Assembly: GCA_038062875.1 (NCBI GenBank)
Contig: JBBTWF010000008.1
Coordinates: 1-63,150, forward strand
DNA from: Patescibacteria group bacterium
Lineage (GTDB): Bacteria; Patescibacteriota; Minisyncoccia; UBA6257; UBA9933
Reading direction: 5' to 3'
DNA: 63,150 nt
This document shows positions 7,476-60,767 of this stretch, piece by piece. Both the position numbers and the translations under genes were made by a program. The notes beneath the pieces were generated by a model. That model saw only the letters and a list, made by a program, of their open reading frames with translations, was not told where the DNA came from and searched no databases. The stretch's first letter is position 1. Each line of letters starts with the position of its first letter.

Positions 7476-8246
7476 ATGGCGAAAGTTATCAGTATTTGCA
7501 ACGCTAAAGGCGGAGTTGGGAAAACCACAACCGCCGTTAATTTAAGTTCTTATTTGGCGGCGCTGGGTAAAAAAATTCTGCTTATTGATTTTGACCCGCA
7601 AGCCAACGCCAGCTCAGGACTGGGATATTCTCCGAAATTAGAAAATGATAGTATTTATCACGGCATTTTCGGCTACGCGACAATTGAAAATTTAATTAAA
7701 AACACGACGATTTTCAACCATCATTTAATTCCGGCTAATCAGCACTTGGCAGGCGCTTTGATTGAATTGGTTGATTTGCAAGACAGAGAATTTTATCTGC
7801 GTAAATTTATTAATCGCCTCCGTCACCAATACGATTATATTTTTATTGATTTGCCACCGAGTTTAAGTTTGCTGACCATAAATGGCTTGGTGGCGGCTGA
7901 CGAGGTTTTAATCCCGATTCAGTGCGAATATTACAGCTTGGAAGGATTAAGCCAGCTTTTGGAAACGATAAATCTTATAAACCAAAATCTCGGCCAGCGA
8001 ATAAAAGTTGCCGGCGGTCTTCTGACGATGTATGATAAAAGAGAAAAACTTTCCAATGAAGTCGCCAAAAATGTCAGGCGGCATTTTCCGCATTATGTTT
8101 TTGAAACAGAAATCCCCCGCTGTATCGCTTTAGCGGAAGCCCCGAGTTTCGGAAAACCGATTATTCTCCACGAACCGAATTCTTCAGGCGCGAAAGCGTA
8201 CGAACGGTTGGCAAGGGAAATTATTGAATTAGAATTTAGGATTTAG
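7476..8246 (+). CDS. parA: Chromosome partitioning ATPase ParA/Soj
   Basis: Deviant Walker A KGGVGKTT and ParA family blocks, directly upstream of parB. The last 6 codons (ELEFRI) and the stop lie in a dispersed repeat. Confidence 0.93.
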   Translation: MAKVISICNAKGGVGKTTTAVNLSSYLAALGKKILLIDFDPQANASSGLGYSPKLENDSIYHGIFGYATIENLIKNTTIFNHHLIPANQHLAGALIELVDLQDREFYLRKFINRLRHQYDYIFIDLPPSLSLLTINGLVAADEVLIPIQCEYYSLEGLSQLLETINLINQNLGQRIKVAGGLLTMYDKREKLSNEVAKNVRRHFPHYVFETEIPRCIALAEAPSFGKPIILHEPNSSGAKAYERLAREIIELEFRI

Positions 8247-8304
8247 AATATAGAATTTAGGACTAGTTAAAACCCCTAAATCCTAACTACTAAATTCTAA
8301 ATCC
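8229..8304. repeat. Inverted copies of the TAGAATTTAGG / CCTAAATTCTA repeat family (parA-parB junction)
   Basis: TTAGAATTTAGGATTTAGAATATAGAATTTAGG faces CCCCTAAATCCTAACTACTAAATTCTAAATCC. The left arm supplies the parA C-terminus and its TAG stop. Confidence 0.9.
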
Positions 8305-8312
8305 TTTTATTT

Positions 8313-9293
8313 ATGCTCGGCAAAGGACTTGAATCATTAATACCGAAAAGGAGAGAGATAGCGGAAAAGCCGCTTTCGAAAGACGCCATAGTTTTGCCTT
8401 CTCAAACGGATTTTCCGCCTTCTCAAAAAACACAAAACAACGAGAAAAATTTCCAAAATTCTACCAGAAAATCATCGGACGCCGACGCTATTTTTCTTAT
8501 TGAAATTGAAAACATCAAACCAAACCCTTTTCAACCGCGGAAAAATTTTGACGAGGAGTCGCTTAAAGAGTTGGCGGCTTCAATCAGAGAATTCGGCATT
8601 ATCCAGCCGCTGATTATTTCAAAAATTGAAAAAGAAACAGAAATGGGAACATCGGTTGAATATCAGCTGATCGCGGGAGAACGACGTCTTAGAGCAGCTG
8701 AAATGCTTGGCTGGGAACGAGTACCGGCAATCATAAAAAAAATTGAGCAGAAAGCCGACCAATTAGAAATAGCTATTGTCGAAAATCTCCAGCGCGCCGA
8801 TTTAAATCCAATTGAAACAGCCCGGTCATACTCGAAGCTTCAGGACGAATTTAGTTTGACTCAGCGAGAAATTGGAACTCGCCTCGGCAAAAGCCGGGAA
8901 ACCATTGCCAACACCCTGCGATTATTGGACTTACCCACGGAAATCCAAGACGCTCTTAATAAAGGAATAATAAACGAAAGCCAAGCGCGTTTACTTTTAG
9001 TTATCAACGACCCGCTCCAGCAACAAAACCTTTTCAATGAATTGCTTGCCGAAAATCTAAGCGTCCGCGAACTTCGAAATCGAATTAGAAAAAACCAATC
9101 GCCTAATTCCCAAGTTCACCAATCAACCAAAGAAGTTGACATTGAAACTAAACACCTAGAAGAACAGCTTGCCGAACTTTTAAGCGCTCCTGTAAAAATA
9201 CAAAAAACAGAACAGGGTGGAAAAGTGGTGATTACTTTTTATTCTCCGGAAGAAATCAGAGGAATAATAGAAAAGCTAAATCCTAAATCCTAA
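8313..9293 (+). CDS. parB: Chromosome partitioning protein ParB/Spo0J
   Basis: ParB-box GERRLRAA and an HTH (SLTQREIGTRLGKSRETIANTLRLL). The C-terminus LNPKS and the stop are encoded by a repeat. Confidence 0.93.
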   Translation: MLGKGLESLIPKRREIAEKPLSKDAIVLPSQTDFPPSQKTQNNEKNFQNSTRKSSDADAIFLIEIENIKPNPFQPRKNFDEESLKELAASIREFGIIQPLIISKIEKETEMGTSVEYQLIAGERRLRAAEMLGWERVPAIIKKIEQKADQLEIAIVENLQRADLNPIETARSYSKLQDEFSLTQREIGTRLGKSRETIANTLRLLDLPTEIQDALNKGIINESQARLLLVINDPLQQQNLFNELLAENLSVRELRNRIRKNQSPNSQVHQSTKEVDIETKHLEEQLAELLSAPVKIQKTEQGGKVVITFYSPEEIRGIIEKLNPKS

Positions 9294-9298
9294 ACTAG
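9276..9298. repeat. CTAAATCCTAAATCCTAAACTAG repeat copy that holds the overlapping stop codons of parB (+) and rel (-)
   Basis: The parB TAA is at 9291-9293 and the rel TAG is the complement of 9290-9292. Both fall inside the repeat. Confidence 0.9.
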
Positions 9299-17216: not shown

Positions 17217-17570
17217 ATGAACATACATAAGGAAAATTTAGCAAAATTAAAAAATAAACTTGAGGAAGAAAAAGAAAGTATTCTTTCGGAATTAAAAAGA
17301 TTGGAAAAAATTCCGGAATTTGGAAACGATGTCGACCCAGACGAAGAAACAGATGAGTCGGAAGAATACGGAAATCAATTAGCGATTGCCCAAGAAATTA
17401 AAAATCGTTTGGCGGATATTGACTCTGCTTTACTGAAAATTAATCCGCAAGCTGGCGGAAACGAATACGGAATTTGCGAAAAATGTAAAAAAGAAATTTC
17501 TTTAGAGTTGCTGGAAATCGACCCGGAGTCAAGATTGTGTAAAAGTTGTAAAAAATCTTCAGACAATTAA
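17217..17570 (+). CDS. DksA/TraR-family C4 zinc-finger protein
   Basis: N-terminal coiled-coil plus C-terminal CEKC...CKSC. It contains repeat-derived PQAGGNE. Confidence 0.8.
   Translation: MNIHKENLAKLKNKLEEEKESILSELKRLEKIPEFGNDVDPDEETDESEEYGNQLAIAQEIKNRLADIDSALLKINPQAGGNEYGICEKCKKEISLELLEIDPESRLCKSCKKSSDN
17445..17458. repeat. CCGCAAGCTGGCGG, a one-mismatch copy of the CCGCCAGCTGGCGG palindrome, in frame (PQAGG)
   Basis: Read directly from the sequence. Confidence 0.85.
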
Positions 17571-19117: not shown

Positions 19118-19981
19118 ATGGAAAAATTAGGCCAGCATTTTTTAATAAATAAAAATAAAATAGATAAAATTATCGACGCCTTGGAATTGAAACCCAAAGA
19201 TACGATAATTGAAATCGGGCCAGGGCACGGGGAACTCACCTTGCCTTTGGCAAGGAATTTTCAATTTCTAATTTCTAATTTTCAAATAATTGCGGTTGAA
19301 AAGGATAAAAAATTAGCTGAAAATCTTAAAAGGAAATTCGCCAGTGAAAAAAATATTAAAATTATTAATGACGACATCCTGAAAATATTATCAAAAGTCC
19401 CTAAATCCTATATTCTAAATTCTAAATCCTATAAAATCGTTGGCAATATCCCTTATTACATAACCGGATATTTATTGAGAATTATCGGCGAACTAACCGC
19501 CTCGCCACAGCGAGGCGAGTCTCGCCCAAAAATCTCTGGGCGGAAAAACAAGCCCTCTCTAATTGTTTTAACAATCCAAAAAGAAGTTGCTGAAAGAATT
19601 GTCGCTAAACCGCCTAAGATGAATTTATTAGCTGCCAGCGTTCAATTTTGGGCAAAACCGGAAATTATTGATTATATCCCAAAAAAAGATTTCCGACCGG
19701 CTCCGAAAGTGGATTCAGCGATAATCAAATTAACACCTAAAACTAAAACCCAAAACCTAACACCTAAAACCTATTACTCTTTTATTAAATTTCTTTTTAA
19801 ACAGCCGAGGAAGACGATAATGAATAATTTAGAATTTAGAATTAAGAATTTAGAATTGAGGGGGAAAAACAAACAAAAATTAAAACAGAAATTGTTAAAA
19901 ATCGGCATTAATCCTCAAGACAGACCTCAAAATCTAAGCGTTGAAAAAATCAAACAATTATCAAAAACAATTAAGGTTTAA
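19118..19981 (+). CDS. rsmA: 16S rRNA (adenine1518/1519-N6)-dimethyltransferase RsmA/KsgA, interrupted in frame by five repeat-derived segments
   Basis: GQHFL, SAM motif IIEIGPGHGELT, GNIPYYIT, QKEVAERI, FRPAPKVDSAII. Confidence 0.9.
   Translation: MEKLGQHFLINKNKIDKIIDALELKPKDTIIEIGPGHGELTLPLARNFQFLISNFQIIAVEKDKKLAENLKRKFASEKNIKIINDDILKILSKVPKSYILNSKSYKIVGNIPYYITGYLLRIIGELTASPQRGESRPKISGRKNKPSLIVLTIQKEVAERIVAKPPKMNLLAASVQFWAKPEIIDYIPKKDFRPAPKVDSAIIKLTPKTKTQNLTPKTYYSFIKFLFKQPRKTIMNNLEFRIKNLELRGKNKQKLKQKLLKIGINPQDRPQNLSVEKIKQLSKTIKV
19256..19288. repeat. AATTTTCAATTTCTAATTTCTAATTTTCAAATA low-complexity repeat in rsmA (NFQFLISNFQI)
   Basis: Read directly. It is related to ATTTCTAATGTCTAAAT at 4211-4227. 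Confidence 0.85.
19399..19433. repeat. CCCTAAATCCTATATTCTAAATTCTAAATCCTATA family copy in rsmA (VPKSYILNSKSYK)
   Basis: Near-identical strings occur at 52611-52642 and 35025-35050. Confidence 0.9.
19498..19542. repeat. Two GC-rich hairpins in rsmA (encoding ASPQRGESRPKISGR)
   Basis: CGCCTCGC-CACA-GCGAGGCG (19498-19517) and CGCCCA-8 nt-TGGGCG (19523-19542). Confidence 0.85.
19733..19771. repeat. CCTAAAAC-type low-complexity repeat in rsmA (TPKTKTQNLTPKT)
   Basis: ACACCTAAAACTAAAACCCAAAACCTAACACCTAAAACC. Confidence 0.85.
19826..19860. repeat. TTTAGAATTTAGAATTAAGAATTTAGAATTGAG family copy in rsmA (NLEFRIKNLELR)
   Basis: Same unit as at the parA end, where it also encodes LEFRI. Confidence 0.9.
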
Positions 19982-20003: not shown

Positions 20004-21902
20004 TTAAAGATCAAAATCAAATTCGGCGAATATTATAACTTTTCCGGGACCGCCTGCTCCATAACAATCAACTTTTTCTCCCAACTCTCCAATAAGCCAC
20101 ATCCCTACTTCTGGTATTGTGTAGGGAGCATAAGTAGTCGTGTCCTTAGAGCCAAAAATGGCAGTTAATGCGTTTTCTAATTTAGATTCGCCCATTTTCC
20201 ATATAAATCTTCCACCTTCTTTACCCAAAATTTGGACAGAATTATTCCGAGGAGGAATAGTGCAAGGACTTACGTTTGTTACCATCCCTCCAAATGTTTG
20301 ATTCTCTTCCGAGGAAGCGGTTTTATCGTCTGAAGAAGCTGGATAAGTAGGAGAAGCGATAGAAGAAATATACACACTTACCGAGTCAGAAACAGAACCG
20401 GCGTCACCGGAACAAGTTAAAGTGTAATATCTATATTCGGTTAAATTACTGATTGATTCTGACCCGTCAAGAGATTTTTCTCCTAACCAATCACGAGAAG
20501 CATTACAAGAACTGACGTTTCTGGAAGTCCAGGATAAATTAACAGAACTGTTTTTAGAAATCGTAACAGAACTGCTGTTATTAACTTTAAGGTCAACAAC
20601 CGGAGATGTAGAGGTGGCGATTGATGAAGTTGTAGATGTGATGCTGGAAGCAATACCCGCAGAAACATATACAGTTACTGAATCCGAAACAGAACCGTTT
20701 TTGCCAGAACAAGTTAAAGTGTAATATCTGGATTTGACTAAATTGCTGATTAATTCCGTTCCGTCAATAGATTTTTCACCTGACCAACCGCTGGAGCCAA
20801 CACAGGATTCAACATTACTAGATTCCCAAGACAAAGACACTTCGCTATCCACCCCAACAGTAATTGGCTTATCGGAATTATTGGCCTTAATATCAACGGT
20901 TGGTATTGAAGTTAATACCGGCGTTGTGGTAGCGCCGCTAGAAACTGTACCTCCAGAAAGAGACTCCCCGAGATAATCTGCCGCTATCCAGCCAATTCGA
21001 CCATCGCTTATTACTTGCGCTTCCCGCATTTGGAATTTTTCATCAGCGATAACGCAGTATTTTATTTCATCGCTGGTTATTTTTAAAGACGTTCCTGTTG
21101 TGACGGCCCCAATTTTTTGGCAATTATCATCTCTTAAATTTATAGTAACGACCGTTTCAGTGCCCGATATTAAATATTGGTTTGAGGAGTCTGACGATAA
21201 CGCTAAATAAGTTGAGGCCCCAGCGCCGTAAAGCTCATTAAGAACGCTTATAGTTTTGGGTCTAGCGTAGCCCGTTTGTTCAATAAAATACGCTTTTTGA
21301 AATTTTTTAAGGGCAATTAAGGTTTGTTCGTCAAAATTTCCGGTAATTTGGTCTGACGATAAAAGATACTCCGAAAAAAGAACCTTTTGAAGAGCGACTA
21401 CATCTAAGTCGTTTTTCGAACCGAAACCAAAATTTTTATTCCAAGTGTAGGAGAAATTTTTAAGAGAGTCACGATTGATGGCTGAAACGGTTGAAGTCAC
21501 GTTCGCGGAGATGGTTTTTTCATCAATATAAATGACAACGGACGATGATGCTGTTTCGTTTTTTTCATTAACACATAAAAGAAGATAATTTTTCGCTTCT
21601 GTGATGTTTTCAATTAATCGGGAACCAGAACCCGGAACGATTTCTGACCAGTTGCCGGAGATTTCACAATGGACAGCGTTATTGGACTCCCAACTTAATT
21701 TAATAGAATCGTTATACGGAACAGTTATCGCACCAACAGTATCATTAGCCTTAATAACAACAGAAATCGCGTTTGGTTCAATGTTTGGCTTGTAAAAATT
21801 TTTCAACGCCACAATACCGCCTCCGACAAGACCGATTATAACGATAAGAGATAAAACGATTATTTTTATATGCATATGTCGATTATTGGACTTCCCCCCC
21901 AC
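20004..21902 (-). CDS. Membrane-anchored cell-wall-binding protein: three Cys-containing Ig-like repeats of about 77-81 aa, a PG-binding domain, an SH3b-like domain and an unknown C-terminal domain
   Basis: N-terminal TM helix. Repeats at aa 46-126, 336-412 and 436-512 (SLSWES..C....YYTLTCSG). PG_binding_1-like DVVALQKVL...ALKKFQ. SH3b-like GRIGWIAADYL. The start may instead be the ATG at 21875. Confidence 0.75.
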   Translation of the reverse strand: MGGKSNNRHMHIKIIVLSLIVIIGLVGGGIVALKNFYKPNIEPNAISVVIKANDTVGAITVPYNDSIKLSWESNNAVHCEISGNWSEIVPGSGSRLIENITEAKNYLLLCVNEKNETASSSVVIYIDEKTISANVTSTVSAINRDSLKNFSYTWNKNFGFGSKNDLDVVALQKVLFSEYLLSSDQITGNFDEQTLIALKKFQKAYFIEQTGYARPKTISVLNELYGAGASTYLALSSDSSNQYLISGTETVVTINLRDDNCQKIGAVTTGTSLKITSDEIKYCVIADEKFQMREAQVISDGRIGWIAADYLGESLSGGTVSSGATTTPVLTSIPTVDIKANNSDKPITVGVDSEVSLSWESSNVESCVGSSGWSGEKSIDGTELISNLVKSRYYTLTCSGKNGSVSDSVTVYVSAGIASSITSTTSSIATSTSPVVDLKVNNSSSVTISKNSSVNLSWTSRNVSSCNASRDWLGEKSLDGSESISNLTEYRYYTLTCSGDAGSVSDSVSVYISSIASPTYPASSDDKTASSEENQTFGGMVTNVSPCTIPPRNNSVQILGKEGGRFIWKMGESKLENALTAIFGSKDTTTYAPYTIPEVGMWLIGELGEKVDCYGAGGPGKVIIFAEFDFDL

Positions 21903-33911: not shown

Positions 33912-35026
33912 AAAAAACAATTATCACAATAGGCGTTATTTTGGGAATTATCGCTATGGGGCTCGGCGTTTATTTCGCTTGGAAAAAATCGCAAGAGATT
34001 TTGACGCCACCTATTTCTGACCAACAACCAATAACTAACAACCAACAACAACTCCCTTCGGCAACTGAAAAACTTAAAGTTTTAAGCGACCAACCGGTTT
34101 TTGATTATTGGACAATAACTACCGGAACTTCCACTAAAATTTTTTACATTAACAAAACCGGTCAAATATTAAAAGTTAATCCGCCAGCTGGCGGAGGAAA
34201 AGATGAAATTATCAGCTCGCAAACAATAAACAATCTTCAACAAGCAAAATCCAGCAATAACGGCGAGCGGATTTTGCTTAAATTAGGCGGCGCTGATTCG
34301 CCTCAATTTAATATTTTCAACGCAACGAATAATATTTGGGAATTGCTACCTTCGGGGATTACGACGGCTGACTTTTCTCCAAGCAATAAAGAAATCGCTT
34401 ATTTAAAAACCAACGGCGACAAAAGCGATTTAATAATAAAAAATTTAACCGCTTCAAAAACCAATAAAATTATTTCAATCGCGCAAAATGACTTTGACTT
34501 AAATTGGCTTACAGACGAAATAATTCTTTTAACCGATAAACCGTCTTTCTATATTGACGACGACATTTGGGCTCTTAATATTAAAAATAAAACCATTAAA
34601 AAAATAACCTCTGGAAGAGGATTATTAACCAATTGGTCGCCCAACGGCGACTCTGGGATAAAATTCTCCGTTGACCAACAAAGAAATTCTTACTTAGAGT
34701 TGATAAATAACGATGGAACGATTCGAGCAAGTTTTGATTTTTCAACACTTCCCGATAAATGCGTTTTTGATTCTTTAAAAATATATTGCGCCGTTCCTCA
34801 AATTAATAATTCTATTCAAAAACCAGCTTTCCCCGATGATTATCTAAAAAGAGCTGTTTATTTCAAGGATATTATTTATAAAATGGACATAGAACAAAAC
34901 ACTTTTGAAATGATTTACGCCAACCCTGAAATAGACATTGACGCCTCTCATTTGTCAATTTCCGACAACCAACTCTTATTTATCAACCGCTATGACAGCA
35001 AACTCTACGAATTAATTCTTGAATAA
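33908..35026 (+). CDS. Operon gene 11: membrane-anchored beta-propeller-like (PD40/TolB-like repeats) protein
   Basis: N-terminal TM helix. FSPSNKEIAYLKTNGDKSDLIIKNL-type repeats. It carries an in-frame PPAGG palindrome. Confidence 0.5.
   Translation: MKKTIITIGVILGIIAMGLGVYFAWKKSQEILTPPISDQQPITNNQQQLPSATEKLKVLSDQPVFDYWTITTGTSTKIFYINKTGQILKVNPPAGGGKDEIISSQTINNLQQAKSSNNGERILLKLGGADSPQFNIFNATNNIWELLPSGITTADFSPSNKEIAYLKTNGDKSDLIIKNLTASKTNKIISIAQNDFDLNWLTDEIILLTDKPSFYIDDDIWALNIKNKTIKKITSGRGLLTNWSPNGDSGIKFSVDQQRNSYLELINNDGTIRASFDFSTLPDKCVFDSLKIYCAVPQINNSIQKPAFPDDYLKRAVYFKDIIYKMDIEQNTFEMIYANPEIDIDASHLSISDNQLLFINRYDSKLYELILE
34181..34194. repeat. Perfect palindrome CCGCCAGCTGGCGG, in frame (NPPAGGG)
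   Basis: Identical to the copy at 13947-13960. Confidence 0.95.
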
Positions 35027-35050
35027 TCCTAAATTCTATATTCTATATCC
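35025..35050. repeat. AATCCTAAATTCTATATTCTATATCC family copy between convergent genes
   Basis: It overlaps the stop codon of the last operon gene. Confidence 0.85.
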
Positions 35051-35055
35051 TCGCT

Positions 35056-35484
35056 TTATATCGGCTTAATCACCACGCGCCGCTCTTTGCCTTCGCCAAC
35101 GCTCTCGGTGCTTATATCCGGACGACCAACCAACTCTATGTGGACTAACCGACGCTCATAAGCGTTCATCGCCGGCAAAGAAACTTCTTCTTTAATGGAA
35201 ACGGCTTTTCTGGCGGCGGCCCGCGCCAATTCTAAAATAATACCTTCGCGTTCGCGCCGATAATTATTCACGTCAACAAAAACAATCCCAAGATTATTTT
35301 TTTTGGCGATTAATTTAACCAAGTGGTCCAAGTCGTTCACGAAAAAAGGCAAAAATCTTTTAAACCCTTCTCCTTCGTTAAGAAAAATCAGAAAACGGCT
35401 GCTTTCCGAATCGTAATTAACGGAAAAATCGGCGAAGCCCATTAGTTCTATAAGTTTTTGGATTATATCTTGTAGTTGCTGCAT
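35056..35484 (-). CDS. jag: Jag-like KH/R3H RNA-binding protein
   Basis: R3H motif (YERRLVHIEL) and its position after yidC. Confidence 0.85.
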   Translation of the reverse strand: MQQLQDIIQKLIELMGFADFSVNYDSESSRFLIFLNEGEGFKRFLPFFVNDLDHLVKLIAKKNNLGIVFVDVNNYRREREGIILELARAAARKAVSIKEEVSLPAMNAYERRLVHIELVGRPDISTESVGEGKERRVVIKPI

Positions 35485-35494
35485 ATTTTTTTAT

Positions 35495-36259
35495 TTATAG
35501 TTTATAGTGTAATTTTTTGTCTATTTCAATTAAATTCTTGTCGCTTGTTTGAAGTTGTTTGTTAATCGCTATTTGTTGGATAACTGAAAAAACCGTTGTT
35601 GTCAGCCAATAAACCCCAACCGCCGAAGGGAGTTTGAATGTATATAAAAAAACAAATGTTAAGATCGGACCCATAAAAACCATCTGCCGGCTCATTTTCT
35701 CCATAGGAGACAACGATTTTTCGACTTCGCCTTTATTTTTATTTTTAACAAGCGATAGTTTGCCTTGAAAATATTGCGCGACGACCGCTAAAATTATAAT
35801 AAAAATATTGCGGACGCTCAAATCAACTATGCCTAAAAAATGAAAATTTAATAAATCCGGCCGAGGGATAAAAGAATACAAAACATCAAATGAGCCGCTG
35901 GAAAGTCCCTTTAAAAAAACTTGGTATAGAGCTATTAGAATAGGCAACTGAACGATGAGTAACAAAAACCCGGAAATTGGGTTAACCTTATGAAGACGGT
36001 AAAGCTCCATCATCTCTTTGGCTTGTTTTTCTTTGTCGTGTTTATGGTTTTGTTGAATTTCCTTTATTTTCGGCGCCAGACGCTGCATAATCGCCTGGTC
36101 TTTAGCTCCCTTATAAAACAAAGGGAATAGAATTAACCGAATTAAAACCGTTAAAATAATAATCGCGATGCCGAGATCGTGGAAAGAAAGATTTTGGTAT
36201 AAAAAAATCAAAGCGTTGAATAACGGCCGGTATAAAATTTCGTGGAATAAATTAGCCAT
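35495..36259 (-). CDS. yidC: Membrane protein insertase YidC (short form)
   Basis: 5-TM YidC/Oxa1 core within the rpmH-rnpA-yidC-jag arrangement. Confidence 0.9.
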   Translation of the reverse strand: MANLFHEILYRPLFNALIFLYQNLSFHDLGIAIIILTVLIRLILFPLFYKGAKDQAIMQRLAPKIKEIQQNHKHDKEKQAKEMMELYRLHKVNPISGFLLLIVQLPILIALYQVFLKGLSSGSFDVLYSFIPRPDLLNFHFLGIVDLSVRNIFIIILAVVAQYFQGKLSLVKNKNKGEVEKSLSPMEKMSRQMVFMGPILTFVFLYTFKLPSAVGVYWLTTTVFSVIQQIAINKQLQTSDKNLIEIDKKLHYKL

Positions 36260-36575
36260 AATATTTTTCTAATTCTTTTTCTAATTCTTTTTTTGTCAGT
36301 TTATTTACAAGCGGCGAAACGATAGTCAGTGTATCTTTTCCGATTTTTAGATGGTACTCTTTTAATCTGATAAAATCAAAAATTATTCTTTTTATTTTAT
36401 TCCGCTTAACGGCGCTTTTATTTACTTTATTGCTTATAATCACGCCGAACCGACTAAATAATAATTTATTTGGCTTGGATTTAATAATAAAATACTTACC
36501 CCGCGCAACCTCGAAAAGATTGGCGCGGGGTTTAGAAAGTCCTTGAATCGGTAAACGATATTTTTTAGACAGCAT
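36252..36575 (-). CDS. rnpA: Ribonuclease P protein component
   Basis: 107-aa basic protein (KKYRLP...) located between rpmH and yidC. Confidence 0.88.
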   Translation of the reverse strand: MLSKKYRLPIQGLSKPRANLFEVARGKYFIIKSKPNKLLFSRFGVIISNKVNKSAVKRNKIKRIIFDFIRLKEYHLKIGKDTLTIVSPLVNKLTKKELEKELEKYYG

Positions 36576-36582
36576 GACAAAT

Positions 36583-36723
36583 TTAAATCCCTACACTAAT
36601 CTTTTTTCTGCCTTTTCGTCGTCTTCTTTTTAAAACGCTTTTTCCTCCGGCAGACCTAGACCTTTTTAAAAATCCATGAGCTCTTCTCCTTTTCCTTTTT
36701 TTAGGTTGATAGGTTGTAGACAT
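36583..36723 (-). CDS. rpmH: 50S ribosomal protein L34 (46 aa; below the ORF-track cutoff)
   Basis: My own translation gives [46 protein letters not shown], which matches the L34 consensus TYQP.KRKR...HGF. Confidence 0.93.
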
Positions 36724-36943
36724 ATAATTTTACTCCTTTTTATTTATAGCTGGGCGTTCGACTCTTTTATTAATTATAATGCGGAATAAATATTAATTCA
36801 AGGGTTTTAATGTAAAAAATTAAAAAGTTCTCCACAGGAAATCAACAGGTTTAAAACTTTTCCCAATTTGACTAGTTTTTTTATCTATATAGAATATAAA
36901 TAGTTTACGCTTTATTTTTTAGAAATTAAAATTTTTTATATTT
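36724..36943. other. Candidate replication origin region (rpmH | dnaA divergent intergenic)
   Basis: Classical rpmH-dnaA junction, where gene orientation switches from minus to plus. It is AT-rich. Only one near-consensus DnaA box is present (TTCTCCACA, 36828-36836). Confidence 0.45.
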
Positions 36944-38311
36944 ATGGACATTAATCAACTTTGGCAAACAACCCTATCGGAACTTGAACTCCAAATTTCG
37001 CGCCCCAATTTTTTAACTTGGCTAAAAAACAGCCGACCGGTTGAAAAAAACGAGGAAGGAAAAATATTAATCGGCTTGACTAATAATTTTGCCAAAGAAT
37101 GGGTTGAAAATAAATATCATAAAACCATTTTAAGTATTATTCGTTCGTTAGATGAGACAATTAAGGGAGTTGAATACACGGTTTTGACAGGAGCGATTAA
37201 CGAACAAGCGCAAAAAGTCCGCGGCGCTCAACGAGAAAAAACCGAGCAATCGCATCCGAGTTTCCCGGAATTAAAAATAGACCCCGAAACAAATCTCCAC
37301 CCTCGCTATAATCTAAATTCCTTCGTTGTCGGCTCTTCTAATGAACTGGCTTACGCTGCCGCTTCCGCGGTAATTAAAGATGTCGGTAAAAAATATAATC
37401 CGTTTTTTATTTACGGTGGCGTTGGTTTGGGGAAAACCCATCTTATACAGGGCATCGGCAATGAAATCAAAAAGGTTTATAAAAATAAAATAAAAGTAAA
37501 ATACGTGCCGTCAGAAAAATTCGTTAATGAAGTAATTTGGGCGATTCGCAATAAACGAATGGACGACGTTAAAAGTAGATACCGCAATATCGATGTCTTA
37601 ATTATCGACGACATTCAGTTTATCGGCGGCAAAGAAAGAAGTGAAGAAGAATTTTTCCACACATTTAACGCTTTATACGAAAACGGCAAACAAATAATAA
37701 TCTCGTCCGACAGACCGCCGGCAGCCATCCCGACGCTGGAAGAACGGCTACGTTCACGTTTTTTGGGCGGAATGATTGCCGACGTCTCCCAGCCCGATTA
37801 TGAAATGAGAGTAGCTATTATCAAGACTAAGCTCCAGGAAAAAAACAACGCCCTTTCAGACGACCTCTGTGGGCTAATCGCCAATAAAGTAAGAAAAAAC
37901 ATCCGTGAGATCGAGGGGATTTTAAATAAAATAATTTTTTACCGAGAGAATAAATGTGTTGACTTAACGCCCGCCATAATCGGGGATATAATTGATTCCG
38001 CAATACAACAATCAGTTAAAAATATCAGCCCAAGCCAAGTAATTAAGGTGGTGGCTGAATTTTTTGAAATTACGCCTAGTGATTTAACTATTCGTTCTAG
38101 AAAAAAAGAAATAGTCGAACCGCGCCAAATAACGATGTTTCTTTTGAGGGATATCCTGGGGTTATCTTACCCGCATATTGGGGAAAAGATGGGGAAAAGA
38201 GACCACAGCACCGCTATACACTCATATGAAAAAATATCAAATGAAATCAATAAAAATCGCGATTTAAGCCAAAAAATAATCTTAATAAAGGAATTAATTT
38301 ATAAACAATAA
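36944..38311 (+). CDS. dnaA: Chromosomal replication initiator DnaA
   Basis: AAA+ Walker A GGVGLGKTHL, LIIDDIQF, sensor motifs, and a C-terminal DNA-binding HTH (RDHSTAIHSYEKI). Confidence 0.96.
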   Translation: MDINQLWQTTLSELELQISRPNFLTWLKNSRPVEKNEEGKILIGLTNNFAKEWVENKYHKTILSIIRSLDETIKGVEYTVLTGAINEQAQKVRGAQREKTEQSHPSFPELKIDPETNLHPRYNLNSFVVGSSNELAYAAASAVIKDVGKKYNPFFIYGGVGLGKTHLIQGIGNEIKKVYKNKIKVKYVPSEKFVNEVIWAIRNKRMDDVKSRYRNIDVLIIDDIQFIGGKERSEEEFFHTFNALYENGKQIIISSDRPPAAIPTLEERLRSRFLGGMIADVSQPDYEMRVAIIKTKLQEKNNALSDDLCGLIANKVRKNIREIEGILNKIIFYRENKCVDLTPAIIGDIIDSAIQQSVKNISPSQVIKVVAEFFEITPSDLTIRSRKKEIVEPRQITMFLLRDILGLSYPHIGEKMGKRDHSTAIHSYEKISNEINKNRDLSQKIILIKELIYKQ

Positions 38312-38419
38312 ATTTTTAGTTTTCCACAAGATGTTAAAATTAAGTTATAATTATTGTATTGTTAATATTATAAATAATTAACTTATTAACTTATTAACAG
38401 CCACTACTAATACTACTAT

Positions 38420-39535
38420 ATGAAATTAATAATACTTAGAAGTAATATAAAAGAAGGGATGGGGGTAATTGATAAAATTATCGGAGAAAATCTTAATTTA
38501 CCGGTTTTAAAAAATTTTCTTATTGAAACCGTGGAAAATAAAATAAAACTATCATCAACAAACCTTGAATTGGCGATTACTAATTTTGTTTCGGGAAAAA
38601 TAATAGAAGAAGGAAGCTTAACGGTCCCGATTAATATTTTTACATCAATAATTAATAATCTTCAAACCGAAAGGATTAATTTAGAAGTTAAAGACAATAA
38701 TTTAATAATCAAAACAGACAATTATCAAGCGAAAATACAAGGAATTAAAAAAGAAGAATTTCCGATAATCCCAAAAATCGGCAACAACCAGCGCTTCTTA
38801 GAAATCCCAACCTCAATATTAAAGCAATCGTTATTTTCGGTGATTAGCGCAGCTCAATTTTCAAATATCCGGCCTGAACTTAACGGCGTTCTTTTTGATT
38901 TTCAAATAAATTCCATTAAGTTGGCGGCTACTGATAGTTTTAGGTTGGCGGAAAAAACAATTACCAACGACCAATTTAAAACAGATATTAATAAACAATT
39001 TAAAACAATTATTCCATTAAAAACCATTCAAGAAACAATCAGGACAATTAAAGACAACGACGGCAAAACCGAGATTTATTTTGATTCCAACCAGGTTCTT
39101 TTTAAAAATAACGATTTAGAAATTATTTCACGGTTGATTGACGGAGAATTTCCGGATTATCAGGCGATTATTCCCGAATCAATCGAGACCGAGGCAATTA
39201 TTAATAGGGAACAATTAATTAACGCAGTAAAACTTGCCAGCGCTTTTATCGACCGGCTTAATGAAATAAAAATAACCATCAAGGAAAAAACGAAAAATAT
39301 TGAAGTTTATTCGGCTGGTCAGAGTTTAGGAGAAAATCAATATTTAATTCCGGCTAAAATCAAAGGGCCGTCTTTGGAAATTATTTTCAATTGGAGGTTT
39401 CTTTTGGACGGACTTAAAAATTTGGACTCCGAAGACGTGATTTTAGGATTAAACGGCAATAACAAGCCGGTGGTGATTAAGTCGCCGAACAACATCTCTT
39501 ATTTTTATATTTTGATGCCGATAAAAACAAATTAA
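38420..39535 (+). CDS. dnaN: DNA polymerase III beta sliding clamp
   Basis: 371 aa with a three-domain repeat pattern, immediately downstream of dnaA. Confidence 0.9.
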   Translation: MKLIILRSNIKEGMGVIDKIIGENLNLPVLKNFLIETVENKIKLSSTNLELAITNFVSGKIIEEGSLTVPINIFTSIINNLQTERINLEVKDNNLIIKTDNYQAKIQGIKKEEFPIIPKIGNNQRFLEIPTSILKQSLFSVISAAQFSNIRPELNGVLFDFQINSIKLAATDSFRLAEKTITNDQFKTDINKQFKTIIPLKTIQETIRTIKDNDGKTEIYFDSNQVLFKNNDLEIISRLIDGEFPDYQAIIPESIETEAIINREQLINAVKLASAFIDRLNEIKITIKEKTKNIEVYSAGQSLGENQYLIPAKIKGPSLEIIFNWRFLLDGLKNLDSEDVILGLNGNNKPVVIKSPNNISYFYILMPIKTN

Positions 39536-51405: not shown

Positions 51406-52268
51406 TAATTTTTCTTTACGGGCCCGATTCCTATCGGCGCCAAAAAAAAGTAAAAGAGCTAGTTGATGATTATCGCCGCAAAGACGCGGCTTTTGATTTG
51501 GAGTATTTTGATTTTTCTTCTCAAAATCAAAACGGAGAAAATTTAAGCGAATTTTTGCGATTAAGAGAATTCGTCGCCACGCAGTCGCTTTTCAGGAAAA
51601 ATAAATTCGGAGTCGCGGAAAACGTCTTTTTCAAAATAAGCGCTTATTCTATTTCCCGACGCAAAGAACTGAAAAATTTTCTTAAAGCGCAAATGTCTCC
51701 GCAGGACCTGGTTTTAATTATTTCCGAAGACGGCAAACCGCTGGCTGATTTTAATTTTTTGATTGACGAAAAAGCGCCGTCTACCGAACTTAAATTTCAG
51801 GAATTTGAAAACCCAAAAGGCGCTCAATTAGAGCATTTTATCAGAAAAGAGGCGAAAGAACGCGGCGTTAATTTTACTCCAAGGGCGATTGGTTTTTTAG
51901 CGGAGAGTTTTAACAACGACAGCTGGGGATTAATTAACGAATTAAATAAATTATCTTTTATTAAATCAGAATCAGTCGATGTGGATAAAATTAAAGAAAT
52001 CAGCGATTATATTGAACCGCCGACCGATGGGGGGAAAATTTATTATTCTATAATGGACATTGTTGGTAATCGTTCGTTGTCGCAAAAATTAAGGGATTTG
52101 GAGATTTTATTCTGTCGTCAGGAAGAACCCGCGAAAATTTTTAATATTTTAGCTAGTCAGGTTGCGTCGTTGGAATTGGCGCAAAAATTGGCTGACTACG
52201 ACCCATTAATAAAATTCGGCCGAATTGATTACGAGGAGGCGTTGCTCGACTTAGTAATTAGCCACTAG
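51402..52268 (+). CDS. holA: DNA polymerase III delta subunit-like protein
   Basis: Size, the N-terminus IIFLYGPDSY and delta-like helical C-domains. The last two codons and the stop lie in the TAGCCAC element. Confidence 0.65.
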   Translation: MIIFLYGPDSYRRQKKVKELVDDYRRKDAAFDLEYFDFSSQNQNGENLSEFLRLREFVATQSLFRKNKFGVAENVFFKISAYSISRRKELKNFLKAQMSPQDLVLIISEDGKPLADFNFLIDEKAPSTELKFQEFENPKGAQLEHFIRKEAKERGVNFTPRAIGFLAESFNNDSWGLINELNKLSFIKSESVDVDKIKEISDYIEPPTDGGKIYYSIMDIVGNRSLSQKLRDLEILFCRQEEPAKIFNILASQVASLELAQKLADYDPLIKFGRIDYEEALLDLVISH

Positions 52269-52282
52269 CCACTAGTGGCTAA
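52258..52282. repeat. TTAGCCACTAGCCACTAGTGGCTAA: TAGCCAC heptamer x2.4 merged with a 16-nt palindrome; supplies the stops of convergent holA and rpsT
   Basis: The holA TAG is at 52266-52268 and the rpsT TAG is the complement of 52272-52274. The palindrome TAGCCACTAGTGGCTA spans 52266-52281. Confidence 0.93.
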
Positions 52283-52526
52283 GTTTTTTAGCCAATCTTG
52301 ATTTCATTCTGTTGGCTGTATTTTTTTTAATAAGATTCGTTTTCGCCGATTTATCAAGTTTTTTATAGACCAAAGATAATTGTTTTTTTGCTTCTTCCGG
52401 GTTGCTTTCCAGCAGTTTTTTGTATTGCTTAATAACCGATTTTAATTCAGTTTTTCTTTTGATATTTTTCTGGCGGCGTCTGATATTCTGACGCAGCGCT
52501 TTTTTCGCGGATTTTGTAATAGGCAT
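52272..52526 (-). CDS. rpsT: 30S ribosomal protein S20
   Basis: 84-aa basic helical protein with the S20-like KSAKKALRQNIRR N-terminus. Confidence 0.9.
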   Translation of the reverse strand: MPITKSAKKALRQNIRRRQKNIKRKTELKSVIKQYKKLLESNPEEAKKQLSLVYKKLDKSAKTNLIKKNTANRMKSRLAKKLSH

Positions 52527-52530
52527 AACA

Positions 52531-52642
52531 AATAGAATTTAGGATATAGAATTTAGAATATAGGATACGGCTTTTAATGTCAATGATTTTGGAATATAAT
52601 AACTATCACGTCCCTAAATTCTAAATCCTATATTCTATATTC
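52531..52642. repeat. Two inverted blocks of the TAGAATTTAGG family flanking the rpsT/ruvA divergent promoter region
   Basis: Left block 52531-52567, right block 52611-52642. The perfect 13-bp complement is TAGAATATAGGAT (52554-52566) with ATCCTATATTCTA (52625-52637). A TATAAT lies at 52595-52600 between them. Confidence 0.88.
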
Positions 52643-52649
52643 TTAATTT

Positions 52650-60172: not shown

Positions 60173-60685
60173 ATGGGAAAGAATATTTCCAAAATAGAAA
60201 AATTTGAATCGTTTGAGCCAAGAACGGAAAAACATGAAATGCCGAAAGGCAAGCTCGGTTTAGTTTTGTGCAAGGAATGTAACGCCGCTTATTACAAAAA
60301 ATCCTGGCATCACAATCTCCGACATTTTAAAGAACTCCGTGAGGATTTGCGGGTAAGTTTTGTTGTTTGTCCGGCTTGTAATATGATAAAAAACAAACAA
60401 TTTGAAGGTCAAATTGAGATTATTAATATCCCGTTAAAAATTTCCGAAGAACTGATTAATTTAATAAAATCGTTTTGCCGCCGCGCTTACGAGCGCGACC
60501 CAATGGACCGATTAATTGGAATAAAAAATACAAAAGGAGGATTAGAAGCGACTACAACCGAGAACCAGTTAGCGGTAAAATTAGCTAAAAAAATAAAGCA
60601 AACTTTTAAAAAAGTTGATATGAAAATTTCTTATTCTCCAACTCCGAGCGATGTGGTGTATGTTAAGTTAGAGTTTAGCCACTAG
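60173..60685 (+). CDS. Zinc-ribbon protein, possibly NMD3-like
   Basis: CKEC...CPAC followed by an alpha/beta domain. The C-terminal SH and the stop come from the TAGCCAC element. The family assignment is tentative. Confidence 0.4.
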   Translation: MGKNISKIEKFESFEPRTEKHEMPKGKLGLVLCKECNAAYYKKSWHHNLRHFKELREDLRVSFVVCPACNMIKNKQFEGQIEIINIPLKISEELINLIKSFCRRAYERDPMDRLIGIKNTKGGLEATTTENQLAVKLAKKIKQTFKKVDMKISYSPTPSDVVYVKLEFSH

Positions 60686-60693
60686 CCACTAGT
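60675..60693. repeat. Second copy of the 19-nt TTAGCCACTAGCCACTAGT six-frame stop element
   Basis: Identical to 52258-52276. It contains the TAG stop of the upstream gene (60683-60685) and ends 2 nt before tRNA-Arg. Confidence 0.95.
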
Positions 60694-60695
60694 AC

Positions 60696-60767
60696 GTCCC
60701 CATAGCTCAACGGATAGAGCGTAGCCCTCCGAAGGCTGAGGTCGAGGTTCAATTCCTCGTAGGGACA
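60696..60767 (+). tRNA. tRNA-Arg (anticodon CCG), CCA not encoded
   Basis: Acceptor GTCCCCA/TAGGGAC (one C-A mismatch), D arm GCTC-AACGGATA-GAGC, anticodon stem TAGCC/GGCTG with loop CTCCGAA, T arm CGAGG-TTCAATT-CCTCG. Confidence 0.85.

What the first reader, a model, noticed from the sequence alone, without database searches (positions are those of the whole stretch)
8229..9298. Dispersed TAGAATTTAGG / CTAAATCCTAAA repeat family that writes gene ends and in-frame peptides (LEFRI, LNPKS)
AT-rich units built from TAGAATTT, AGGATTT and TATAGAAT occur at least nine times. The copies are at 8229-8304, 9276-9298, 13961-13997, 19399-19433, 19826-19860, 35025-50, 52531-67 and 52611-42. In one orientation the unit is full of stop codons and terminates genes: parA ends ELEFRI-TAG, parB ends LNPKS-TAA, and the convergent rel stop overlaps the parB stop inside the same copy. 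In the other frames it is open and is translated inside proteins: LNPKS again in the DprA linker, VPKSYILNSKSYK and NLEFRIKNLELR in RsmA. Inverted pairs flank the parA/parB junction and the rpsT/ruvA divergent promoter. The same DNA producing identical peptides in unrelated proteins argues for a spreading DNA element rather than protein-level selection.
Basis: seen in the sequence. Interest (0 to 1): 0.65.

Follow-up and report, generated by a model that had tools for sequence, protein, structure and literature searches.

The report
Heptamer-repeat hairpins at gene boundaries
The repeats are real: short tandem runs of a 7-base unit (TAGRATW), often paired into hairpins, that fill gene junctions and flexible protein loops of a groundwater Parcubacteria genome and are gained, lost and swapped between relatives. 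They are a new variant of the long-known but unexplained bacterial heptanucleotide repeats.

Summary
Nine arrays of 2-5 tandem copies of the heptamer TAGRATW (reverse WATYCTA) lie at the stated coordinates. This is far above chance (18 hits against 2.4 expected), and independent metagenome assemblies reproduce them without a difference. Two pairs form long A/U-rich hairpins. The arrays supply the stop codons of parA, parB and rel, and they encode LNPKS, PKSYILNSKSYK and NLEFRIKNLEL in frame.

The family is one of several heptamer families in this genome. Period-7 arrays number 18 against 2.7 expected. Relatives carry heptamer hairpins at the same junctions (parA|parB, dprA|topA, parB|rel, rpsR|PAP2) but with different units, or carry none. 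A near-identical TAGRATW hairpin sits at a different junction in another genome. In one relative an rsmA loop array was replaced by a copy of a neighbouring array.

Arrays are more conserved than silent sites (p = 3e-4). No transposase, Rfam family or RNA data were found. Control scans show the unit is not special across the biosphere.

Best reading: a non-autonomous heptanucleotide satellite in hairpin form, related to STRR/LSSR repeats and behaving like RPE/REPIN elements. It spreads by copy-choice or ectopic conversion, changes length by slippage, and is tolerated only at gene boundaries and in linkers. Any function in termination or RNA processing is inferred only.

The parts
8230..8264 (+). 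Left arm of the parA|parB hairpin: TAGAATT TAGGATT TAGAATA TAGAATT TAGGACT. It encodes the last 5 residues (LEFRI) and the TAG stop (8244-8246) of parA.
8265..8272 (.). A-rich loop (AGTTAAAA) of the parA|parB hairpin.
8273..8304 (-). Right arm (CCCCTAAATCCTAACTACTAAATTCTAAATCC). It ends 8 nt before the parB ATG (8313). The hairpin folds at -22 to -28 kcal/mol, z = -5.2.
9276..9294 (-). Solo array (CTAAATC x2.7). It encodes the ParB C-terminus LNPKS plus the TAA stop, and on the other strand the TAG stop of rel.
13964..13979 (+). Array of 2.3 units in the DprA linker (gene on the - strand; read as LNPKS). It lies next to the palindrome TCCGCCAGCTGGCGGA at 13946-13961 (PPAGG).
19400..19431 (-). 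Array in RsmA loop 2, read as PKSYILNSKSY. Units 2 and 5 carry TAT where an in-frame TAA would fall.
19826..19857 (+). Array in RsmA loop 4, read as NLEFRIKNLEL. The in-frame TAG is replaced by AAG.
35025..35050 (-). Solo array between the convergent hyp372 (stop at 35024-35026) and jag (35056-35484, - strand).
52532..52567 (+). Left arm of the rpsT/ruvA inverted pair. It ends 5 nt from the rpsT start codon (52526, - strand).
52568..52613 (.). 46-nt centre between the arms. It holds a promoter-like TTGACA-17-TATTCT site (52583-52555, - strand) pointing at rpsT.
52614..52648 (-). Right arm, ending 1 nt before the ruvA ATG (52650). The pair folds at -30 to -33 kcal/mol, z = -4.3 to -5.7.
19259..19281 (+). 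Sister heptamer array (TTTCTAA/AATTTCT) in RsmA loop 1, read as NFQFLISNFQ. A perfect (AATTTCC)4 occupies the same loop in L129 and the DprA linker of L022.
19731..19773 (+). Sister heptamer array (CTAAAAC/CTAACAC) in RsmA loop 3, read as TPKTKTQNLTPKT. In L128 this loop holds a TAGRATW-family array instead.
12589..12626 (-). Other heptamer array (CAACGAC x5.4) in frame in TopA, read as DQRPTTNDQRRTT.
52259..52275 (+). Other heptamer array (TAGCCAC x2.4). It supplies the stops of ORF 51402-52268 and rpsT, and lies inside the palindrome TTAGCCACTAG/CTAGTGGCTAA. The same unit occurs at 60676-60692.

Best explanation
The copies are short tandem arrays of a heptanucleotide (TAGRATW). They are one family within a genome-wide population of heptanucleotide satellites in this Parcubacteria (Paceibacteria) lineage.

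The typical full element is an inverted pair, (TAGRATW)n, an A-rich loop, then (WATYCTA)n. This is a 70-120 nt A/T-rich hairpin that fills the spacer between the stop of one gene and the start of the next. Single arms also occur at convergent gene ends and inside coding regions.

Proposed way of working, with each step marked:
1. Arrays change length in unit steps by replication slippage. Shown: a 21-nt (3-unit) in-frame deletion and a one-unit difference between relatives.
2. Array sequence is copied from one locus to another without an element-encoded enzyme, by template switching or ectopic conversion between arrays, possibly helped by DNA exchange between co-occurring relatives. Shown: one array was overwritten by a copy of its neighbour, near-identical hairpins lie at non-orthologous junctions, and filled and empty sites exist. 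The enzymology is inferred.
3. Selection removes every copy that breaks a gene. Survivors therefore sit exactly between stop and start codons, or in disordered loops and linkers. Inside ORFs only short arrays, or arrays with TAT/AAG variant units, survive (shown).
4. The host has co-opted them as punctuation. They provide stop codons and the last residues of proteins (shown). They also form the whole leader in front of parB, rpsT and ruvA (shown). The long stem-loops probably act in RNA as terminators, stabilisers or RNase III-type processing sites (inferred, untested).
For: Enrichment:
- The motif is enriched 7- to 11-fold over shuffles.
- Period-7 arrays number 18 against 2.7 expected (maximum 7 in 50 shuffles); other periods are only 1.5-3x.

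Reality and extent:
- Contigs of 8 or more runs match with 0 differences.
- Word depth at each array is about 10-30x the genome's own depth.
- At least 5 more hairpins with other loops appear at this genome's depth, so the family extends beyond the window.

Hairpins fold with z of -4.3 to -5.7.

Turnover at orthologous junctions:
- parA|parB holds a TAGRATW hairpin here, a TAGKTTT/CTAACAC hairpin in L121, a TAGAATC/TAGAAAA hairpin in L129, other units in L292 and L293, and none in L122-126.
- dprA|topA overlaps by ATGA here. It is filled by 39-140 nt of five different heptamer arrays in L022 and L291-L294.
- rpsR|PAP2 is 9 nt here. In L292 it is an 83-nt TAGRATW hairpin whose first TAG is the rpsR stop and whose right arm ends 2 nt before the ATG.

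Spread between loci:
- The L022 dprA|topA hairpin is 84% identical over 88 nt to the window's parA|parB hairpin. It has the same order of variant units and the same odd unit CCTAACTMC, whereas topA is 74% identical.
- L128 loop 3 of rsmA matches the loop-2 array of its relatives at 31/33 positions, but matches the orthologous loop 3 of L127 at only 23/33. The genes are 88% identical elsewhere.

DNA-level conservation: third codon positions agree at 42/53 sites inside arrays against 111/212 outside, window versus L127, Fisher p = 3e-4.

Polarity: inverted pairs run TAG-sense then CTA-sense in 12 cases and the reverse in 1.

Coding filter: pure arrays have stops in six frames, and the ORF copies carry variants exactly at the in-frame stop positions.

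Precedent: heptanucleotide repeats are the most abundant long SSR class in many bacteria and are linked to slippage (Mrazek 2007, as summarised in PMC4679880 and PMC4692102).
Against: - No step of the copying mechanism was observed directly.
- The polarity of gain versus loss at the junctions is not established. The window's compact junctions could be deletions.
- Short A/T-rich arrays are poor substrates for RecA-type conversion.
- Conservation above silent-site level could instead mean sequence-specific selection for a function.
- The TATGAA duplication around the L022 hairpin looks like a transposase footprint.
- Only 63 kb of the genome and a handful of relatives were examined.
- There are no transcript data.
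Confidence: 0.5

Rival explanations
1. It is a classical non-autonomous transposon (MITE or REPIN-like). The inverted arrays are terminal repeats that a transposase encoded elsewhere in the genome recognises and uses to cut or copy the hairpin into new spacers.
For: - The structure has inverted repeats, is 70-120 nt long and has a strict polarity of 12:1.
- There are filled and empty sites.
- A 6-bp TATGAA duplication flanks the L022 copy.
- Near-identical copies sit at different loci.
- A RAYT-like Y1 transposase exists in a relative, L292.
- REPINs are likewise inverted doublets that form hairpins (PMC3116915).
Against: - No transposase lies in the window (tblastn; Pfam on the large ORFs).
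- The L292 RAYT is flanked by its own GC-rich REP hairpin (TAAGGACRTYCGAWGTCCTTA), not by heptamer arrays.
- The window's two hairpins and the L292 hairpin show no target duplication.
- At least 4 bp of the L022 duplication is required simply to keep both overlapping genes intact.
- The outer ends are not sharply defined and the arm lengths vary.
- The same junctions hold arrays of different units in different genomes.
Confidence: 0.17
2. It is a functional cis-element kept by selection. The arrays would be binding sites or RNA signals for a trans-acting factor. Candidates are cold-shock or S1-type proteins, RNase III, a DNA-uptake receptor as for DUS/USS, or RNA polymerase through the -10-like TAGAAT. 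Their placement at gene boundaries would then be the point, not a by-product.
For: - Arrays are more conserved than silent sites.
- CTA-sense arms abut the start codons of parB, ruvA, rpsT, L022 topA, L129 and L121 parB, and L292 PAP2 within 1-8 nt.
- Hairpins persist at parA|parB in several lineages.
- Promoter-like TTGGCA-16-TAGAAT and TTGACA-17-TATTCT sites use array units.
- TAACTGA heptamers in Beggiatoaceae also sit just upstream of start codons (PMC4679880).
- dprA and pilus genes in the neighbourhood fit a competent lifestyle.
Against: - Many different units coexist in one genome and replace each other at the same site, which does not fit a single recognition specificity.
- Many orthologous junctions have no array at all.
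- One hairpin (L293) has the opposite polarity.
- Across 155 arrays in other genomes the start-codon proximity bias is only 22 against 12.
- The stems are not G+C-rich and the terminator scan does not call them.
- The density of about 1 per 7 kb is low for an uptake sequence.
Confidence: 0.2
3. They are purely local microsatellites. Each array arose and grew in place by slippage, and the shared unit reflects base composition and chance. Nothing moves between loci.
For: - Heptamer SSRs are common in many bacteria.
- Control scans show that other A/T-rich heptamers form 5-unit arrays about as often as TAGRATW in viral contigs (30 against 14 and 26 contigs).
- Unit-step length differences are seen.
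Against: - Nine loci in one genome share the same three unit variants, while orthologous loci in relatives carry other units.
- The L022 and window hairpins share the order of units and an aberrant unit at non-orthologous sites.
- L128 loop 3 is a copy of loop 2.
- The paired inverted arms and the 12:1 polarity are not produced by slippage alone.
Confidence: 0.08
4. It is an assembly artefact, or the result of protein-level selection for the LNPKS or LEFRI motifs.
For: The sequence is of low complexity. Logan unitigs break inside the parA|parB array.
Against: - Long contigs from independent runs and studies span the arrays with 0 differences.
- The peptides lie in variable loops where orthologues have unrelated repeat-coded peptides.
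- The same DNA also occurs in intergenic regions.
Confidence: 0.02

Closest known systems
Heptanucleotide tandem repeats of bacteria. These are the STRR sequences of heterocystous cyanobacteria (Mazel et al. 1990, from my own knowledge) and the 'long SSRs' of Mrazek et al. 2007, as summarised in PMC4679880 and PMC4692102.
   Same: The unit is 7 bp and repeats head to tail. Many loci are dispersed through the genome and lie mainly at gene boundaries. Period 7 is over-represented relative to other periods. Length changes in unit steps. Function is unknown. The same taxa (cyanobacteria, Bacteroidota) carry TAGRATW arrays.
   Different: Here the arrays are short (2-5 units) and are typically arranged as inverted pairs that form hairpins. 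They are also translated in frame inside housekeeping genes. The host is a Parcubacteria (CPR) genome, for which I found no report.
TAACTGA direct repeats of marine Beggiatoaceae (MacGregor 2015, PMC4679880).
   Same: It is a stop-codon-containing heptamer in sets of 2-6 copies, placed within a few nucleotides upstream of start codons. The distribution is patchy across phyla, and no transfer mechanism is known. TAACTGA arrays also occur in the loci fetched here.
   Different: TAACTGA sets are direct repeats: 169 direct sets and 1 inverted. They have a strong forward bias upstream of genes, and that paper reports no hairpin or unit swapping at orthologous sites.
GGGAATC and GGGGATT repeats of Xanthomonas and Nostoc (Rehm et al. 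2015, PMC4692102).
   Same: They are intergenic heptamer arrays, some of them inverted pairs between genes. Length and sequence vary widely between close relatives at the same intergenic sites.
   Different: Those repeats are G-rich and form quadruplexes. The arrays here are A/T-rich and form duplex hairpins.
Rickettsia palindromic elements, RPE (Ogata et al. 2000, from my own knowledge; the reference appears in the papers).
   Same: They are small palindromic repeats inserted in frame into unrelated, often essential, protein genes. They add the same peptide to surface or variable regions without destroying function.
   Different: RPEs are 100-150 bp elements of unique sequence, not tandem heptamers. 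The ORF copies here are mostly single arms of 16-35 nt.
REP/REPIN elements with RAYT transposases (Bertels and Rainey 2011, PMC3116915).
   Same: They are inverted doublets that form hairpins in extragenic space, inside operons and at gene ends. Doublets predominate over singlets, and the families are genome-specific.
   Different: REPs are G+C-rich, with an invariant 16-mer, and are linked to a RAYT gene. Here the arms are A/T-rich tandem arrays, and the only RAYT seen (L292) is flanked by a different, classical REP.

Membership tests
Heptanucleotide tandem repeats (STRR / long SSR) | Repeat unit of 7 bp in head-to-tail copies | tested here: met
   TRF gives period 7 with 2.3-5.1 copies at all nine sites.
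Heptanucleotide tandem repeats (STRR / long SSR) | Same unit at many dispersed loci, above chance, with period 7 specifically enriched | tested here: met
   18 hits against 2.4 expected. Period-7 arrays number 18 against 2.7 expected, while other periods are 1.5-3x.
Heptanucleotide tandem repeats (STRR / long SSR) | Length polymorphism in unit steps between relatives | tested here: met
   L128 lacks exactly 21 nt (3 units) in rsmA loop 2. The window and L127 differ by one unit in loop 3.
MITE (non-autonomous DNA transposon) | Terminal inverted repeats and small size | tested here: met
   The inverted arrays make elements of 75-117 nt.
MITE (non-autonomous DNA transposon) | Target-site duplication of fixed length at every copy | tested here: inconclusive
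   TATGAA is duplicated at the L022 copy, and 4 of those 6 bp are required to keep both genes. None is seen at the window's two hairpins or at the L292 hairpin.
MITE (non-autonomous DNA transposon) | Cognate transposase with matching ends in the genome | tested here: not met
   None lies in the 63-kb window. The rest of the genome could not be searched.
REPIN-RAYT system | Element family found next to a RAYT (Y1 transposase) gene | tested here: not met
   The window has no RAYT. The RAYT-like gene in L292 is flanked by TAAGGACRTYCGAWGTCCTTA, not by heptamer arrays.
RPE-like in-frame palindromic insertions | The same repeat DNA is translated within unrelated proteins, at variable positions, with the reading frame kept | tested here: met
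   This holds for ParA, ParB, DprA and RsmA. The sites are the indel-rich loops of the RsmA and DprA alignments.
DNA uptake sequences (DUS/USS) | One fixed motif at about 1 per kb, and a demonstrated uptake bias | tested here: not met
   The density is about 1 per 7 kb, and several unrelated units coexist and replace each other. Uptake bias is not testable with these tools.
Intrinsic (Rho-independent) terminator | G+C-rich stem followed by a U-tract, with RNA 3' ends at the site | tested here: inconclusive
   The stems are stable but A/U-rich, and the scan does not call them. A U-tract follows the parA|parB hairpin only. No RNA runs were available.
Any curated RNA family (Rfam 15) | Match at the gathering score | tested here: not met
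   Only 4 tRNAs are found in the window.

The most novel reading that the evidence does not exclude
Heptamer-array hairpins could be a selected, sequence-specific gene-punctuation system of Parcubacteria. In this reading a trans-acting factor reads the arrays, which explains why they are kept beyond silent-site saturation and why they sit exactly from stop codon to start codon. The factor could be an RNase III-type or cold-shock/S1-type RNA-binding protein, or a DNA-uptake receptor. The unit 'dialects' would then co-evolve with that factor in each lineage. This would give the first function for the 35-year-old puzzle of bacterial heptanucleotide repeats.
Probability: 0.15. Interest if true: 0.75.

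Novelty: new variant of a known kind. Interest (0 to 1): 0.5.

Why it matters
Heptanucleotide repeats have been known in bacteria since 1990, and neither their origin nor their role has been explained. This lineage offers unusually clean comparative material. The genomes are tiny and gene-dense, so a spacer is either minimal or filled by one hairpin. Many sequenced relatives show gain, loss, unit swapping and array-to-array copying at the same junctions.

The case also shows that such repeats write stop codons, protein tails and loop segments of essential genes (ParA, ParB, RsmA, DprA, TopA). That matters for gene calling, for protein-family alignments and for low-complexity 'insertions' in CPR proteomes. 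It also explains why metagenome assemblies of these organisms break at gene junctions.

Tried and rejected
1. A special, horizontally shared unit. TAGRATW arrays turned up in many phyla and viruses. Two composition-matched control heptamers gave similar counts of 5-unit arrays in viral contigs (30 against 14 and 26), so the cross-phylum occurrence is generic.
2. Rfam gave no family.
3. RNA-seq: no run holds the locus, so termination and processing are untested.
4. The metagenome scan with ParB yielded only 6 loci. These were useful for parA|parB but too few for a gain/loss phylogeny.
5. RAYT link: the Y1 transposase in L292 has its own REP hairpins and no homologue in the window.
6. Target-site duplications were seen at one copy only.
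7. Start-codon proximity across 155 arrays of other genomes shows only a weak bias, 22 against 12.
8. The sigma-70 and terminator consensus scans give suggestive -10-like TAGAAT matches but no terminator calls.
9. Covariation analysis of the stem was not attempted. Tandem arms cannot be aligned unambiguously, and only two clearly homologous full copies were available.
10. Strain-level unit-number polymorphism could not be read, because the runs are held as contigs that collapse or break at the arrays.
Full report
**1. What is there**

The window is 37-41% G+C. It comes from a Parcubacteria/Paceibacteria-type bacterium of groundwater: the best RsmA and DprA relatives are named Paceibacterota, Nealsonbacteria, Wolfebacteria or Patescibacteria, and the runs that hold it are groundwater metagenomes. 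The window spans the replication origin region, with rnpA-yidC-jag facing dnaA-dnaN and the cumulative GC-skew minimum there.

The 11-mer and 12-mer seeds are 7- to 11-fold over-represented. They give 18 hits against 2.43 expected and 14 against 1.25, and no shuffle reached the observed counts.

**2. Anatomy**

Two sites are inverted pairs. At parA|parB the structure is 8230-8264 (five units), an 8-nt A-rich loop, and 8273-8304. At rpsT/ruvA it is 52532-52567, a 46-nt centre, and 52614-52648. Both fold into long A/U-rich stem-loops on either strand, at -22 to -33 kcal/mol with z of -4.3 to -5.7.

The parA stop (TAG, 8244-8246) and its last five codons lie in the left arm. The right arm ends 8 nt before the parB ATG. 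At the divergent pair the arms end 5 nt from the rpsT start and 1 nt from the ruvA start, so the whole 123-nt intergenic region is the element plus its centre.

The solo array at 9276-9294 supplies the parB stop and, on the other strand, the rel stop. The array at 35025-35050 lies between the convergent hyp372 and jag. Three arrays are translated: the DprA linker and RsmA loops 2 and 4.

A pure array of three or more TAGAATT or TAGGATT units has a stop in all six frames, whereas the TAGAATA variant is open in the reverse sense. The ORF copies are open because they are shorter than three units (DprA), or because they carry TAT or AAG exactly where the in-frame TAA or TAG would fall (RsmA).

**3. 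Not an artefact, and not confined to the window**

Contigs from at least eight runs of two studies match with no difference, including contigs of 12.8 and 15.5 kb that span all the rsmA arrays. Word depth jumps from about 12-30 (this genome) to about 470-930 at the TAGRATW arrays. It reaches 1,500-2,100 at the AATTTCY array in another site's runs, so these units are highly repeated in the communities.

Contigs that join a TAG-sense arm to a CTA-sense arm through other short, mostly A-rich loops occur at the depth of this genome. The loops include GGCTTAAAATC, GGAATAAAACTCTAAGCAGTAAATAAAATC, GGGGTGGTTAT, CGAGAAAAAA and ATAGGGAACGGAACAAAAAATTACC. There are therefore at least five more hairpins outside the window.

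**4. One family among many heptamer families**

TRF finds 18 non-overlapping period-7 arrays in the window against 2.7 in Markov shuffles (maximum 7). Other periods are only 1.5-3 times expected. Other units include:
- AATTTCT (RsmA loop 1, NFQFLISNFQ);
- CTAAAAC/CTAACAC (RsmA loop 3, TPKTKTQNLTPKT, and an intergenic copy at 43310);
- CAACGAC (TopA, DQRPTTNDQRRTT) and CAAACGA (an RNase J-like protein);
- CTAAAAG;
- TAGCCAC (two gene ends).

In 126 fetched loci, period 7 accounts for 302 of about 600 arrays, and these include the published TAACTGA unit.

A scan of one genome per species found TAGRATW arrays in Patescibacteria, cyanobacteria, Bacteroidota, Acidobacteriota, Planctomycetota and others, mostly 4-12 units long. 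Viral contigs have them too. Two composition-matched control heptamers give similar numbers of five-unit arrays (30 against 14 and 26 contigs). The unit itself is therefore not special. What is general is the tendency of A/T-rich heptamers to form arrays.

Inverted pairs were seen only in bacterial loci. They are strongly polar, with 12 running TAG-sense then CTA-sense and 1 the reverse, and none occurs among 158 viral arrays.

**5. Comparison with relatives**

Syntenic contigs of relatives were fetched through RsmA, DprA and ParB.

- **parA|parB.** L121 has a hairpin of TAGKTTT and CTAACAC units. L129 has one of TAGAATC/TAGAAAA units. L292 and L293 have other units. L122-126 have no spacer at all.
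- **dprA|topA.** In the window the two genes overlap by ATGA. L022 has an 87-nt TAGRATW hairpin, L291 has 112 nt, L292 has 39 nt of (ATTTCTA)n, L293 has a 140-nt hairpin of opposite polarity, and L294 has 76 nt of TAGGGKT/GACTAAT units.
- **rpsR|PAP2.** The window has 9 nt. L292 has an 83-nt TAGRATW hairpin whose first TAG is the rpsR stop and whose right arm ends 2 nt before the ATG. At ssb|rpsR the window has 4 nt and L292 has about 160 nt of another heptamer hairpin.
- **parB|rel.** Spacers range from 6-8 nt in L129 and L292 to a 120-nt hairpin in L293.

Spacers in this clade are thus either minimal or filled by one heptamer hairpin. The unit differs between genomes at the same site, while one genome uses the same few units at many sites.

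**6. Evidence that sequence moves between loci**

The L022 dprA|topA hairpin is 84% identical over 88 nt to the window's parA|parB hairpin. It has the same order of variant units and the same aberrant unit CCTAACTMC, although topA of the two genomes is only 74% identical.

In rsmA all four variable loops are heptamer arrays in all four genomes compared. L127 and L128 are 88% identical outside the arrays. L128 has lost exactly 21 nt (three units) from loop 2. Its loop 3 matches the loop-2 array of its relatives at 31/33 positions, but matches the orthologous loop 3 of L127 at only 23/33. One array has been overwritten by a copy of another 300 bp away.

L129 has (CTAAAAG)n in loop 2 and a perfect (AATTTCC)4 in loop 1. 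That same unit fills the DprA linker of L022.

Between the window and L127, third codon positions agree at 42/53 sites inside arrays and at 111/212 sites outside them (Fisher p = 3e-4). The arrays are therefore held or refreshed at the DNA level, beyond what the protein requires.

**7. Mechanism**

I commit to the following model, with confidence of about 0.5. These are non-autonomous heptanucleotide satellites in hairpin form.
- They change length by slippage (shown by the unit-step indels).
- They are copied between loci by template switching or ectopic conversion, possibly helped by DNA exchange among co-occurring relatives. The outcome is shown; the enzymology is inferred.
- They are filtered by selection, so that only copies lying between a stop and a start, or in disordered loops, survive (shown by their placement and by the stop-avoiding variants).

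The host uses them as gene ends and leaders (shown). The stem-loops may act as terminators, stabilisers or RNase III-type processing sites, and the TAGAAT units resemble -10 hexamers. None of that could be tested, because no RNA run holds the locus, Rfam has no match, and the terminator scan does not call A/U-rich stems.

Rivals:
- A true MITE or REPIN moved by a transposase in trans (0.17). This is favoured by the TATGAA duplication in L022 and by the polarity. It is weakened by the lack of duplications elsewhere, the lack of a transposase in the window, and a RAYT in L292 that carries its own different REP.
- A selected cis-element read by a trans factor (0.2). This is favoured by the conservation and by the abutment on start codons. 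It is weakened by the many interchangeable units and by the many empty orthologous sites.
- Purely local microsatellites (0.08).
- Artefact or protein-level selection (0.02).

**8. Relation to what is known**

Heptanucleotide tandem repeats are a known kind. They include the STRR sequences of cyanobacteria (Mazel 1990, from my own knowledge) and the dominant class of long SSRs in many bacteria, for which polymerase slippage has been proposed (Mrazek 2007, as summarised in PMC4679880 and PMC4692102). TAACTGA repeats sit just upstream of start codons in Beggiatoaceae, cyanobacteria and Bacteroidetes (PMC4679880). GGGAATC and GGGGATT repeats, with some inverted pairs, occur in Xanthomonas and Nostoc (PMC4692102).

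In-frame palindromic repeats are known from Rickettsia (RPE, from my own knowledge), and inverted doublets that form hairpins are known as REPINs (PMC3116915).

The following were not found described in my searches:
- heptamer arrays organised as polar inverted pairs that fill spacers exactly from stop to start;
- their in-frame use in essential genes;
- unit swapping at orthologous sites;
- array-to-array copying;
- any of these in CPR bacteria.

I therefore rate the finding a new variant of a known kind.

**9. Verdict**

Interest is 0.5. The phenomenon is not categorically new, but this lineage makes a long-standing puzzle tractable by comparative genomics.

Noticed in passing
window 11751-11766, 13946-13961, 17444-17459, 34180-34195, 57065-57080: A second repeat family: the G+C-rich 16-bp palindrome TCCGCCAGCTGGCGGA. 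It has 5 copies (up to 2 mismatches) against 0.02 expected. All copies lie inside ORFs and all are translated as PPAGG or PQAGG in five unrelated proteins (TopA, DprA, a 117-aa ORF, hyp372 and an RNase J-like protein). A DprA relative (P0126) has NPPTGG at the same linker.
   Followed up: partly
window about 19520-19567 (rsmA): A 48-nt in-frame insertion (TASPQRGESRPKISGR), unique to this genome among 20 RsmA homologues. It is built from two small G+C-rich hairpins (GCCTCGC-CACA-GCGAGGC and CGCCCA-N8-TGGGCG).
   Followed up: no
window 52249-52285 and 60676-60692: The heptamer TAGCCAC x2.4 occurs at two gene ends. The first copy lies inside the palindrome TTAGCCACTAG/CTAGTGGCTAA between ORF 51402-52268 and rpsT and gives both stops (LVISH*, KLSH*). 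The second ends ORF 60173-60685, 4 nt before a tRNA (60696-60767).
   Followed up: no
L292 486-1208 and flanks (relative; DprA 74% identical): A Y1 (HuH, motif HYHLL) transposase of RAYT type is inserted between the comM-like gene and rsmA. It is flanked on both sides by the REP-like hairpin TAAGGACRTYCGAWGTCCTTA. It is absent from the window.
   Followed up: partly
window 35056-39535: The origin region has the layout jag, yidC and rnpA (- strand) facing dnaA and dnaN (+ strand). There is a 368-nt A/T-rich gap at 36576-36943, and the cumulative GC-skew minimum is here. This is the likely oriC.
   Followed up: partly
RsmA and DprA homologues P0004-P0021, P0128-P0145; L129 about 10700-10800: Other repeat-coded peptides recur in the same variable loops of relatives. 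Examples are LRQAQGK, EAEKRGFMRIIEADKRGF, VNQRTHQRLSAS/RVNPRLNPRQSAS and TNIRNYENN. This points to further DNA repeat families (REP-like and other heptamers) that use the same tolerant sites.
   Followed up: no
window 20364-20538 and 20661-20835: A 175-nt direct repeat (74% identity, 297 nt apart) lies inside the 632-aa ORF 20004-21902 (- strand; it has a peptidoglycan-binding domain). This is probably an internal protein repeat.
   Followed up: no
window 15536-15656: A 20-nt tandem repeat (AAACGGCAATTCCAAACGGC x2.1) and classical G+C-rich terminator-like hairpins lie next to the tRNA at 15455-15526. Ordinary G+C-rich terminators therefore coexist with the A/T-rich heptamer hairpins.
   Followed up: no
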